Shown here: piece after piece, positions 48,001-51,000 of the stretch
How the letters are laid out: each line of letters opens with the position of its first letter
How positions within the stretch are numbered: position 1 is the stretch's first letter
Source: Escherichia coli
Lineage (GTDB): Bacteria > Pseudomonadota > Gammaproteobacteria > Enterobacterales > Enterobacteriaceae
Length of the DNA: 64,000 nt
Reading direction: 5' to 3' (one strand)
Assembly (NCBI RefSeq): GCF_029227855.1
Contig: NZ_CP074356.1
Position numbers: made by a program

Positions 48001-51000
48001 CAATCCCGTTAGCGTACTGAATGATTGCACCAGCAGACGGGCACGCCTTCAGGCAGCCCGGATCTTCACAGTGCATACAGCCGTCTTTACGGATCAGCCA
48101 CTCCAGCTTGCCGTTCTGTTCGGTTTCGCTAAAGCGCATCACCGTCCAGGACTTGGCGCTCAGATCGGCGGGGTTATCGTAAACCCCGACGCAGTGCCCC
48201 ACTTCATCACGGATGTCGTTCCACTCTGAACACGCCACCTGACAGGCTTTACAGCCGATACAGGTGGAAACGTCGATAAGTTTCGCGACTTCTGCTTTGT
48301 AATCACGCACCTGAGAAGGCGGCGTGATGGAGTTAGTTGCGGACCTTTTGATAATGTCCTGCGTTTCCATAGCCATCTGTTCGCCCCCTTACGCCTTCTC
48401 AATGTTGACTAAGAACGCTTTATATTCCGGCGTTTGCGAGTTTGCATCACCGACATTCGGCGTCAGAGTGTTAGCGATATAACCTTTACGCGCGACACCC
48501 TCAAAGCCCCAGTGGATTGGAATACCCACCGTTTCAACCTGCTGACCGTTTACATTCAGCGGTTTCAGACGGCGCGTTACCACCGCCACCGCGCGGATAA
48601 AGCCACGCTTGCTTGAGACAGTGACACGATCGCCATTATTAATGCCTTTCGCCGCCGCCAGCGTTTCGCTGATTTCCACAAACTGTTCCGGCTGAGCAAT
48701 TGCGTTGAGCAACGCGTGCTTGGTCCAGGTGTGGAAGTGCTCGGTCAGACGATAGGTCGTACCCACATACGGGAACTGCTCTTTTTTACCCATCCGCAGC
48801 GCGTCTTGTTCATACAGACGAACCACCGGGTTAGACACCACGTTCGGATGCAGCGGGTTAGTGCCCAGCGGCGTTTCGATTGGCTCGTAGTGTTCCGGGA
48901 ACGGACCTTCCGCCATTTTGTTGATGGCAAACAGGCGTCCCATCCCTTCCGGCTGCATGATAAACGGCCCGGTTGGCGTACCCGGTGCGGCATTGCCGAA
49001 GTCAGGAATATCGTTACCCGTCCACTTGCTGCCGTTCCACTGGATCAGCATCCGTTTCGGATCCCACGGTTTACCGCTGATATCCGCCGAAGCACGGTTG
49101 TAGAGTACGCGACGGTTGAGCGGCCACGCCCAGGCCCATCCCAGCGTATTCCCCAGACCGGACGGGTCGGAGTTATCGCGGTTAGCCATCTGGTTGCCCT
49201 GCTCTGTCCAGCTACCGGTGTAGATCCAGCAAGACGATGCGGTTGTACCGTCATCACGCAGATGCGCAAAGCTACTCAGCAACTGACCTTTCTTCGCAAT
49301 CAGCACGCCATTAGCATCATAGAGATCTTCCAGCGCATAGCCGTTATTCTCTTTCGCCACTTCGTCAGACTGCGGTTCGTGCGGCTGCTTGTAGTTCCAG
49401 CTCATCTTCATCAGCGGTTCTACGCCTTTACCACCTTCGGCCTGGTACAGCTCGCGCAGATGATGGTAGATACCCGCCAGAATTTCGCCGTCGTTACGCG
49501 CTTCGCCCGGCGCATCCTGACCTTTCCAGTGCCACTGCAACCAGCGACCGGAGTTAGCGATAGAACCATCTTCTTCAGCAAAGCAGGTCGAAGGCAGACG
49601 GAATACCTCAGTCTGAATAGACGCCGGATCGACATCGTTCGACTCGCCGTGGTTCTGCCAGAAGGTAGAAGTTTCAGTCACCAGCGGATCGATAACCACC
49701 ATGTACTTCAGCTTGCTCAGGCAGCTCACCACTTTGTTTTTGTCCGGGAAGGACGCAACCGGGTTAAAGCCCTGGCAGAAATAACCGGTGACTTTGCCTT
49801 CATCCATCATGTTGAAATACTTGATGACGTCGTAGGTCTGGTCCCACTTAGGCAGCCAGTCGTAGCCCCAGTTATTCTCTTTCTGCGCGGCATCGCCGTA
49901 GAAAGATTTCATCAGGCTAACGAAGAACTTCGGATAGTTGCTCCAGTAGTTCACCTGATCAGCCAGCGTCGCTTTCGGCGTGTTCGCTTCCAGATACGAC
50001 TGCAAATCAACCTGTTTTTCTGACGGCAGCGTCAGATAACCCGGCAGGCTGGTAGAGAGCAGGCCTAAGTCGGTCAGCCCCTGAATGTTGGAGTGACCAC
50101 GCAATGCGTTCACGCCGCCACCGGCCATACCCATGTTACCGAGCAGTAACTGGATCATCGCCATAGTACGGATGTTCTGCGCACCCACGGTGTGCTGCGT
50201 CCAGCCCAGCGCGTAAAGGAAGGTGGTTGTGCGATCCGGTGCGCTGGTGGAGGCCAGCACTTCACACACTTTCAGGAAGTCGGCTTTTGGCGTACCACAG
50301 ATGTTTTCTACTACGTCCGGCGTGTAGCGGGAAACGTGCTCTTTCAGCAAGTTCCACACACAGCGCGGATGAGTCAGTGTTTCATCGCGTTTCGCATAGC
50401 CGTTTTCATCGAACTGATAGTTCCAGGACGATTTATCGTATTGACGTTTTTCAGCGTCGTAGCCGCTGAACAGACCGTCTTCGAAAGCAAAATCATCACG
50501 CACCAGCAGACTGGCGTTGGTGTAATGCTTAACGTATTCGGCGTTGATTTTGTTGTTTTCGATCAGGTAGCGCAAAACGCCAGACAGGAACGTAATGTCC
50601 GTACCGGAACGAATAGGTGCGTAAATATCCGCTACAGAAGCGGTACGCGTAAAACGGGGATCGACAACGATCAAGGTTGCATCGTTGTTGTTTTTCGCTT
50701 CCATCGCCCAGCGGAAACCGACGGGATGCGCTTCAGCAGCGTTACCGCCCATCACCATTACGACGTTAGCGTTTTTGATATCCACCCAGTGGTTGGTCAT
50801 CGCACCGCGACCAAATGTTGGAGCAAGACTTGCTACCGTTGGTCCGTGTCAGACGCGCGCCTGGTTGTCTACCGCCAGCATCCCGAGGGAGCGGGCAAAT
50901 TTCTGGGTCAGCATCCCGGTTTCGTTGCTGGCACCGGAGGCACACAGCATACCGGTAGAAAGCCAACGGTTTACCGTTACGCCCTGCTCGTTCTTTTCAA

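What the first reader, a model, noticed from the sequence alone, without database searches (positions are those of the whole stretch)
50800..50848. Selenocysteine recoding in fdnG
The ORF track splits fdnG at an in-frame TGA (50846-50848), but the N-terminal (195 codons) and C-terminal parts are in one frame and the flanking sequence ...QARV-U-HGPTVASLAPTFGRG is the conserved Sec site. The gene is therefore intact and depends on selABCD.
Basis: partly seen in the sequence, partly recalled or inferred. Interest (0 to 1): 0.3.

Follow-up and report, generated by a model that had tools for sequence, protein, structure and literature searches.

The report
Known selenocysteine codon in E. coli fdnG
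The apparent stop codon inside this E. coli formate dehydrogenase gene is the long-known UGA that is read as selenocysteine with the help of an RNA hairpin just after it, so the gene is intact and the finding is ordinary.

Summary
The window is E. coli chromosome, 99.96% identical to strain JNEC-KY178. fdnG occupies 48389-51436 on the minus strand. It has 1015 codons and a single internal in-frame TGA at codon 196. That TGA lies at 50849-50851, not 50846-50848 as the finding states; 50846-50848 is His197 (CAC).

Directly after the UGA is a hairpin that matches Rfam SECIS_3 (50796-50854, 84.3 bits against a gathering score of 63, E about 1e-18). It has a bulged U17 and loop bases G23 and U24 at the same positions as in the fdhF element. 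It meets every criterion of the published bacterial SECIS model.

In 58 distinct Sec-type homologues from other bacteria, the apical helix is 96.8% paired and 4 of its 7 pairs show compensatory changes. Four Cys-type homologues lack the helix. Among Enterobacterales, synonymous codons inside the element are nearly frozen (0.92 identical against 0.51 in the flanks).

The protein differs at four residues from PDB 1KQF, which has selenocysteine at position 196. RefSeq annotates one uninterrupted CDS. fdnH and fdnI follow fdnG. The fdnG UGA and its stem-loop were characterised experimentally in 1991.

Verdict: a real feature, correctly interpreted, already known, of low interest.

The parts
48389..51436 (-). 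fdnG, formate dehydrogenase-N alpha subunit. One CDS of 1015 codons plus stop, with Sec at codon 196.
   Evidence: Translation. 100% nt identity to the CDS annotated fdnG in NZ_AP045174.1. PDB 1kqf_A aligns 1-1015 with 4 substitutions. TIGR01553 scores 1624 bits against a cutoff of 814. The Pfam Molybdopterin domain, residues 107-589, spans the TGA.
50849..50851 (-). UGA codon 196, decoded as selenocysteine. The following base is C, from the His197 codon CAC.
   Evidence: It aligns with X196 of 1kqf_A. K-12 fdnG and fdoG have a TGA at the same codon, and fdhF has one at codon 140.
50796..50854 (-). Bacterial SECIS element, from 3 nt before the UGA to 53 nt after it.
   Evidence: Rfam RF01989 SECIS_3, 84.3 bits against a gathering score of 63, E 2.7e-19, full model length 1-59. 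Cross-species pair counts.
50820..50837 (-). Apical minihelix, inferred to be the SelB-binding part. G15-G16 pair with C31-C32. U17 (50835) is bulged. A18-A22 pair with U26-U30. The loop is G23 U24 C25 (50829-50827).
   Evidence: MFE folds. 96.8% of cells are paired across 58 distinct sequences and 4 of 7 pairs show changes on both sides. RNAalifold recovers the 5-bp stem de novo. U17, G23 and U24 are the determinants described in PMC8659212.
51338..51436 (-). N-terminal twin-arginine (Tat) signal peptide of FdnG, MDVSRRQFFK...ALA.
   Evidence: Read directly from the translation and identical to residues 1-33 of 1kqf_A. The Tat assignment rests on established knowledge and was not tested here.
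47492..48376 (-). fdnH, the iron-sulfur beta subunit.
   Evidence: TIGR01582, 482 bits. Annotated fdnH in NZ_AP045174.1.
46846..47499 (-). fdnI, the cytochrome b gamma subunit.
   Evidence: NF007558, 486 bits. Annotated fdnI.
51437..51667 (-). Intergenic control region between fdnG and yddG. It contains an FNR-like site, TTGATTTCGCGCAA (51501-51514), and a NarL 7-2-7-like inverted heptamer pair, TACCGCT-AT-TGAGGTA (51562-51577), whose centre lies about 62 nt upstream of the FNR site centre.
   Evidence: Sequence and pattern match with 2 mismatches. Across the whole window such matches are not enriched (51 found, 42.5 expected). Assigning these sites to FNR and NarL is recalled from the fdnG promoter literature and was not tested here.

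Best explanation
This is the selenocysteine codon and SECIS element of E. coli fdnG, which encodes the catalytic subunit of the nitrate-inducible, periplasm-facing formate dehydrogenase-N. The proposed mechanism is as follows. As the ribosome translates the fdnGHI mRNA, the hairpin directly 3' of UGA196 is bound through its apical minihelix (bulged U17, loop G23 and U24) by the specialised elongation factor SelB, which carries GTP and Sec-tRNA(Sec). When the UGA enters the A site, SelB delivers Sec-tRNA(Sec) in competition with release factor 2. Selenocysteine is inserted and translation continues for 819 more codons, giving one 1015-residue protein in which Sec196 ligates the molybdenum of the bis-MGD cofactor. 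Shown here: the single reading frame; the UGA at the crystallographic Sec position; a hairpin that passes the Rfam model and all published bacterial SECIS criteria; its covariation across bacteria and its loss in Cys-type homologues; and synonymous-site freezing in Enterobacterales. Inferred from established knowledge: SelB binding, the requirement for selA, selB, selC and selD, and Mo ligation.
For: One frame with a single internal TGA at codon 196. Rfam SECIS_3 at 84.3 bits against a gathering score of 63, E 1.4e-18 over the whole window. U17, G23 and U24 sit at the same distance from the UGA as in K-12 fdhF, and the 59-mer is identical in K-12 fdnG and fdoG; these bases are the SelB determinants (PMC8659212). 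The bacterial SECIS model quoted in PMC13188914 is fully met: a 3-nt loop beginning GU, a 7-bp upper stem, 19 nt between UGA and loop, and an MFE of -10.3 kcal/mol. Across 58 distinct Sec-type FdnG homologues the apical helix is 96.8% paired, 4 of 7 pairs change on both sides, 0 of 500 shuffles reach the covariation score, and the slid-register controls reach only 28-49% paired. Four Cys-type FdnG homologues with the same HGPTV...FGRG peptide form 3.5 of 7 apical pairs against 6.78 of 7 in Sec-type. In 26 Enterobacterales-like loci the identical-codon fraction is 0.92 inside the element against 0.51 in the flanks, and 19 of the 26 carry the identical 59-mer. PDB 1kqf_A has X at residue 196. 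RefSeq annotates one 3048-nt CDS. Every one of 5425 genomes has at least one 100% identical copy of the 59-mer. selC is present in 5424 of 5426 genomes. Berg et al. 1991 (J Biol Chem 266:22380 and 22386) established the fdnG UGA=Sec reading and the stem-loop requirement, as cited in PMC13188914.
Against: Thermodynamic stability alone does not separate the hairpin from shuffled sequence: z is -0.77 for 59 nt and -1.11 for 43 nt. The lower stem is poorly supported. It is 83% paired in either of two registers with little covariation, and in E. coli the Rfam register contains A.C and A.G mismatches. The sel genes are not in the window, so their presence in this particular genome is not shown. The window carries 15 single-base indels relative to its nearest relative, in neighbouring genes, so the assembly or the strain is not pristine. 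None of these indels lies in fdnGHI.
Confidence: 0.97

Rival explanations
1. The TGA is a true nonsense mutation, so fdnG is a pseudogene that yields only a 195-residue fragment.
For: The mechanical ORF call ends at the TGA. Neighbouring genes in this window (a porin, an LRR protein, narU and narZ) are disrupted relative to the closest genome.
Against: K-12 fdnG and fdoG have the same TGA at the same codon and fdhF has one at codon 140. 88 FdnG-type homologues across Proteobacteria, Acidobacteria and other phyla carry it too. It aligns with Sec196 in the crystal structure. The 819 downstream codons are open and identical to an annotated intact gene. A SECIS above the Rfam threshold follows it.
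Confidence: 0.01
2. The UGA and SECIS are intact, but this particular strain lacks a functional sel machinery. The codon would then terminate translation or be misread at low level as Cys or Trp, and Fdh-N would be inactive.
For: selA, selB, selC and selD are not in the window and could not be checked for this genome (one search finds no tRNA gene). 2 of 5426 E. coli genomes show no selC match.
Against: selC is present in 5424 of 5426 complete genomes. The fdnG sequence shows no decay: it has zero differences from JNEC-KY178 and 4 conservative amino-acid changes from K-12, which would be unexpected if the gene were untranslatable.
Confidence: 0.02
3. The hairpin is merely a by-product of the conserved peptide HGPTVASLAPTFGRG and has no RNA-level role.
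For: U17 and G23 are at first or second codon positions fixed by Val and Ser/Gly. The search pattern used itself required part of this peptide. The MFE z-score is weak.
Against: Cys-type homologues encode nearly the same peptide yet form only 3.5 of 7 apical pairs, and only 1 of 4 has GU at +23/+24. The compensatory changes fall largely at wobble positions. Synonymous codons are 0.92 identical inside the element against 0.51 outside it. The longest identical run between fdnG and fdoG, 71 nt, starts 3 nt before the TGA, although the genes are 74.6% identical overall.
Confidence: 0.01

Closest known systems
E. coli K-12 fdnG Sec196 codon and SECIS (Berg, Li, Heider & Stewart 1991; Berg, Baron & Stewart 1991; crystal structure PDB 1KQF)
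   Same: The gene, operon and chromosomal neighbourhood are the same. The 59-nt UGA+SECIS tract is 100% identical. The protein is 1011/1015 identical, with Sec at residue 196.
   Different: There are 50 nucleotide differences (98.4% identity) and 4 amino-acid differences from K-12: D127E, F342L, A666S and S787N (window residue first). None lies in or near the SECIS; the nearest nucleotide difference is at gene nt 678. An IS200C copy lies downstream of fdnI in this strain.
E. coli fdoG (formate dehydrogenase-O alpha subunit) SECIS
   Same: The TGA is at codon 196, and a 71-nt tract (gene nt 583-653) covering the UGA and SECIS is identical. Both fall under Rfam SECIS_3.
   Different: It is a paralogue, 76.8% aa and 74.6% nt identical overall, located in the fdhD-fdoGHI-fdhE locus. 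The window gene has the fdnG context instead.
E. coli fdhF (formate dehydrogenase-H) SECIS, the reference bacterial SECIS
   Same: UGA followed by CAC GG. The apical minihelix has GG/CC base pairs, a bulged U17, and G23 and U24 in the loop at the same distance from the UGA (PMC8659212). The Sec-His-Gly-Pro motif is shared.
   Different: The stem sequence differs: UGCA/UGCA with loop GGUC in fdhF, against AGCAA/UUGCU with loop GUC here. The window element is one nucleotide longer. The window scores only 28.8 bits on a second Rfam model, SECIS_2 (gathering score 70). The fdhF-type homologues do not fit the SECIS_3 pairing (6.7 of 16 pairs). The protein is cytoplasmic, 715 aa, and has no Tat signal.

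Membership tests
Bacterial SECIS (consensus model of Zhang & Gladyshev as quoted in PMC13188914) | In-frame UGA inside a coding region, with a stem-loop directly downstream | tested here: met
   The UGA is at 50849-50851. The hairpin begins within 6 nt of it.
Bacterial SECIS (consensus model of Zhang & Gladyshev as quoted in PMC13188914) | Apical loop of 3-9 nt and upper stem of 4-16 bp | tested here: met
   Loop GUC (3 nt). Upper stem of 5 bp, a U bulge, then 2 bp.
Bacterial SECIS (consensus model of Zhang & Gladyshev as quoted in PMC13188914) | G in the first two loop positions, usually followed by G or U | tested here: met
   The loop starts with G23 U24. 56 of 58 distinct Sec-type homologues have GU at these positions.
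Bacterial SECIS (consensus model of Zhang & Gladyshev as quoted in PMC13188914) | 16-37 nt between the UGA and the apical loop | tested here: met
   19 nt (nt +4 to +22) separate the UGA from the loop.
Bacterial SECIS (consensus model of Zhang & Gladyshev as quoted in PMC13188914) | MFE of -7.5 kcal/mol or lower | tested here: met
   -10.3 kcal/mol for 43 nt starting at the UGA and -13.8 for 48 nt. The z-score against shuffles is only about -1.
Rfam RF01989 SECIS_3 | Covariance-model score at or above the curated gathering threshold (63 bits) | tested here: met
   84.3 bits over the full model length 1-59.
E. coli-type SelB-binding minihelix (fdhF paradigm) | Bulged U17 and loop bases G23/U24, numbering from the U of UGA | tested here: met
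   U at 50835 is unpaired between two helix segments. G at 50829 and U at 50828 are in the loop. The positions match K-12 fdhF (PMC8659212).
E. coli-type SelB-binding minihelix (fdhF paradigm) | Helix conserved through compensatory base changes | tested here: met
   The apical helix is 96.8% paired. 4 of 7 pairs change on both sides. 0 of 500 shuffles reach the score. The lower helix was inconclusive.
E. coli-type SelB-binding minihelix (fdhF paradigm) | Physical binding of SelB and selenium incorporation at the UGA | not testable with these tools
   Established experimentally for the identical K-12 sequence (Berg et al. 1991, cited in PMC13188914) and by Sec196 in PDB 1KQF.
FdnG, formate dehydrogenase-N alpha subunit (NCBIfam TIGR01553 equivalog) | Whole-protein score above the curated cutoff (814 bits) | tested here: met
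   1624 bits, residues 2-1014.
FdnG, formate dehydrogenase-N alpha subunit (NCBIfam TIGR01553 equivalog) | U-H-x-P active-site motif | tested here: met
   V-U-H-G-P at residues 195-199. The motif is listed for this family in PMC13188914 Table 1.
FdnG, formate dehydrogenase-N alpha subunit (NCBIfam TIGR01553 equivalog) | fdnG-fdnH-fdnI operon next to yddG, as opposed to fdhD-fdoGHI-fdhE | tested here: met
   fdnH (TIGR01582) and fdnI (NF007558, 486 bits, against 270 bits for the FdoI model) lie downstream, and yddG lies upstream. The fdoG context is shown for contrast.
FdoG (paralogue, considered) | Location in the fdhD-fdoGHI-fdhE locus and closest identity to K-12 FdoG | tested here: not met
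   76.8% aa identity to K-12 FdoG against 99.6% to 1KQF FdnG. The flanking genes differ.

The most novel reading that the evidence does not exclude
The element is constrained over a longer tract than the roughly 17-nt SelB-binding minihelix. The whole 59-mer is nucleotide-identical in 19 of 26 Enterobacterales-like FdnG/FdoG loci, including loci from genera as distant as Photorhabdus and Providencia. A 71-nt tract is identical between the paralogues fdnG and fdoG, which are only 75% identical overall. That could mean the lower stem and 3' flank have an extra sequence-specific role, for example in ribosome pausing, RF2 competition or co-regulation of the two paralogues. It could also reflect recurrent gene conversion between them.
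Probability: 0.12. Interest if true: 0.3.

Novelty: already known. Interest (0 to 1): 0.05.

Why it matters
The practical value is for annotation. A naive ORF caller splits a 1015-codon respiratory enzyme gene into two pieces, and anyone scanning for pseudogenes would miscall it. The biology has been textbook knowledge since 1991 and is already encoded in RefSeq annotation, Rfam, NCBIfam and the PDB. The comparative analysis done here (Sec-type against Cys-type homologues, and synonymous-site freezing) illustrates an RNA structure overlaid on a coding sequence. It adds nothing conceptually new.

Tried and rejected
1. The expected hairpin forms, but the energy is not distinguishable from dinucleotide shuffles (z -0.77 and -1.11). 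I rejected it as a sufficient criterion and relied on the covariance model and covariation.

2. The register of the lower stem. I compared the Rfam register with the E. coli MFE register on 58 sequences. Both are about 83% paired with little covariation, so neither is preferred.

3. De novo RNAalifold. It recovered the 5-bp apical stem. It also proposed a small 5' hairpin (columns 6-10 with 17-20) whose pairs show no change on both sides, so that hairpin is unsupported.

4. FNR half-site search. The match in the fdnG promoter has 2 mismatches, and such matches are not enriched across the window (51 found against 42.5 expected). It is only a lead.

5. A PDB search with 'U' in the query was rejected by the tool. 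I repeated it with C at position 196.

6. The E. coli-wide invariance of the 59-mer cannot be assigned to fdnG specifically. fdoG carries the identical 59-mer and the tool reports only the best place per record. The only safe statement is that every genome has at least one identical copy.

7. One pattern hit, in Streptomyces (L080), was a chance match outside any FDH gene and was excluded.

8. The antisense mechanical ORFs across the site (50192-51262 + and 50685-51110 +) have no annotation support and were dismissed.

Full report
**Observation.** On the minus strand the mechanical ORF list gives two adjacent ORFs in one frame: 50849..51436 (195 aa) and 48389..50800 (803 aa). Translating 48389-51436 (-) as one stretch gives 1015 codons with a single internal stop at codon 196, in the context MLAVDNQARV*HGPTVASLAPTFGRGAMTNH. 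Reading the ruler and recomputing places the TGA at 50849-50851. The finding's 50846-50848 is the following His codon, CAC. The finding's span 50800-50848 covers the hairpin but not the stop codon itself.

**Identity of the gene.** The 3048-nt stretch is 100% identical to the CDS annotated fdnG in E. coli JNEC-KY178. It matches at 95-99% in nearly all 5426 complete E. coli genomes. RefSeq annotates it as one uninterrupted CDS, flanked by yddG upstream and by fdnH and fdnI downstream. The whole 64-kb window is colinear with that genome at 99.96% identity.

The protein aligns end to end with PDB 1kqf_A, "formate dehydrogenase, nitrate-inducible, major subunit". There are four substitutions, and the window's TGA falls opposite the non-standard residue X196. 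NCBIfam TIGR01553 (formate dehydrogenase-N subunit alpha, an equivalog model) scores 1624 bits against a cutoff of 814. The two downstream ORFs hit the FDH beta and FDH-N gamma equivalog models. The Pfam Molybdopterin domain (residues 107-589) spans the TGA, so the two ORF halves are parts of one domain.

The paralogue fdoG lies in a different locus, fdhD-fdoGHI-fdhE, and is only 76.8% identical in protein. The window gene is therefore fdnG.

**The RNA element.** An Rfam scan of the whole window at gathering thresholds returns two hits. One is SECIS_3 (RF01989) at 50796-50854 (-): 84.3 bits against a gathering score of 63, E 1.4e-18, full model length.

Numbering from the U of the UGA:
- G15-G16 pair with C31-C32.
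- U17 is bulged.
- A18-A22 pair with U26-U30.
- The loop is G23-U24-C25.

K-12 fdhF, extracted here for comparison, has U17, G23 and U24 at the same positions. K-12 fdnG and fdoG have a 59-mer identical to the window's. A review describes U17, G23 and U24 as the conserved bases and U17 and G23 as the SelB contact sites (PMC8659212).

The published bacterial SECIS model requires a loop of 3-9 nt, an upper stem of 4-16 bp, a G in the first two loop positions, 16-37 nt from the UGA to the loop, and an MFE of -7.5 kcal/mol or lower (PMC13188914). Every criterion is met: a 3-nt loop GUC, 7 bp, G23 U24, 19 nt, and -10.3 kcal/mol.

One caveat applies. The folding energy alone is not significantly better than that of shuffled sequence (z about -1).

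**Independent comparative test.** A single pattern scan of one-genome-per-species contigs, for R-V-(TGA/TGC/TGT)-H-G-P-(S/T)-V, returned 120 loci:
- 88 FdnG-type with TGA
- 4 FdnG-type with a Cys codon
- 13 FdhF-type with TGA
- 14 FdhF-type with Cys
- 1 chance hit

The 58 distinct Sec-type FdnG 59-mers align without gaps. On that alignment the apical helix is 96.8% paired, and 4 of its 7 pairs show changes on both sides, for example AGCAA/UUGCU, GGCCA/UGGCC, GUCCA/UGGGC and CUCCA/UGGGG. No shuffle out of 500 reaches the observed covariation score, and the slid registers fall to 28-49% paired. RNAalifold recovers the 5-bp apical stem without guidance.

The lower stem is only about 83% paired in either of two registers and shows little covariation.

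The four Cys-type FdnG homologues encode almost the same peptide. They form only 3.5 of the 7 apical pairs, against 6.78 of 7 in Sec-type sequences, and only one of the four keeps GU at +23/+24. The hairpin therefore tracks the UGA, not the peptide.

Among 26 Enterobacterales-like loci, the fraction of identical codons at identical amino acids is 0.92 inside the element against 0.51 in both flanks. 19 of the 26 carry exactly the window's 59-mer. Between fdnG and fdoG, the longest identical run in the whole gene is 71 nt and starts 3 nt before the TGA.

**Trans-acting machinery.** The window has no tRNA gene, and the sel genes are not part of this region. The requirement for SelA, SelB, SelC and SelD, and the order of events at the ribosome, are taken from the literature (PMC13188914) and were not tested.

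**Mechanism.** SelB, carrying GTP and Sec-tRNA(Sec), binds the apical minihelix. It delivers the tRNA when UGA196 reaches the A site, competing with RF2. Translation then continues to give the full 1015-residue, Tat-exported subunit, whose Sec ligates the Mo cofactor. Metal ligation by Sec in FdhA enzymes is stated in PMC13188914.

The base after the UGA is C, fixed by His197. From my own knowledge this is a weak RF2 termination context; this was not tested.

**What is known.** The fdnGHI sequence and the evidence that its opal codon encodes selenocysteine were published by Berg, Li, Heider and Stewart in 1991. The requirement for the mRNA stem-loop was published by Berg, Baron and Stewart in the same year. 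Both are cited in PMC13188914. The feature is also represented in Rfam, NCBIfam, RefSeq annotation and PDB 1KQF.

**Verdict.** The one mildly open point is why the tract frozen at nucleotide level is longer than the SelB-binding minihelix.

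Noticed in passing
window 53140-61718: Relative to the nearest complete genome (NZ_AP045174.1) the window has 11 substitutions and 15 single-base indels, and every indel lies in this 8.6-kb stretch. 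They break the reading frames of the porin gene (52808-53909, split into 115 + 261 aa), the LRR-protein gene (55402-, 368 aa against 418), narU (largest ORF 256 aa) and narZ (936 + 152 + 140 aa). Many sit in short A or T runs. This could be assembly error or real gene decay; it was not resolved. fdnGHI has no differences.
   Followed up: partly
window 46193-46784 (-): An IS200C copy (tnpA 46193-46651) lies between fdnI and yddM, with its 5' structured RNA matching Rfam STnc490 (46661-46784, 144.6 bits against a gathering score of 56). IS200 copies probably explain the many extra matching places, including on plasmids, in the 24-kb similarity search.
   Followed up: partly
window 50796-50866 (-) compared with K-12 fdoG (L004): fdnG and fdoG are 74.6% identical in nucleotides overall but share a perfectly identical 71-nt run (gene nt 583-653) that starts 3 nt before the Sec codon. 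The same 59-mer is also identical in Photorhabdus, Providencia, Yersinia, Citrobacter and Enterobacter loci.
   Followed up: yes
L003 (NZ_CP061758.1, E. coli O68:H12 strain 97.3): This genome shows only one match to the SECIS 59-mer. The match is the fdoG copy, 98.3% identical with one mismatch, so the strain appears to lack fdnG. PGAP labels fdoG as 'fdnG' in all records inspected, which makes name-based counting of the two paralogues unreliable.
   Followed up: partly
window 51501-51577 (-): The fdnG upstream region holds an FNR-like site, TTGATTTCGCGCAA, and about 62 nt further upstream an inverted heptamer pair, TACCGCT-AT-TGAGGTA. This resembles the NarL 7-2-7 site recalled from the fdnG promoter literature, and the spacing fits sites near -42.5 and -104.5.
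   Followed up: no
L011, L031, L049, L050 (Snodgrassella, Orbaceae, Vogesella x2): These FdnG-type homologues have Cys (TGT or TGC) in place of Sec. They keep the HGP(T/S)V...(F/Y)GRGAMTN peptide but have lost the apical hairpin, so they serve as natural Sec-to-Cys replacement controls.
   Followed up: partly
window 45521-46083 (+): A RelE/ParE-family toxin gene and a HigA-family antitoxin gene (yddM) lie beside the IS200 insertion. hipBA lies at about 2233-3821. A fimbrial operon with a truncated major-subunit gene lies at about 5296-11332. All of this comes from the annotation of the near-identical genome.
   Followed up: no
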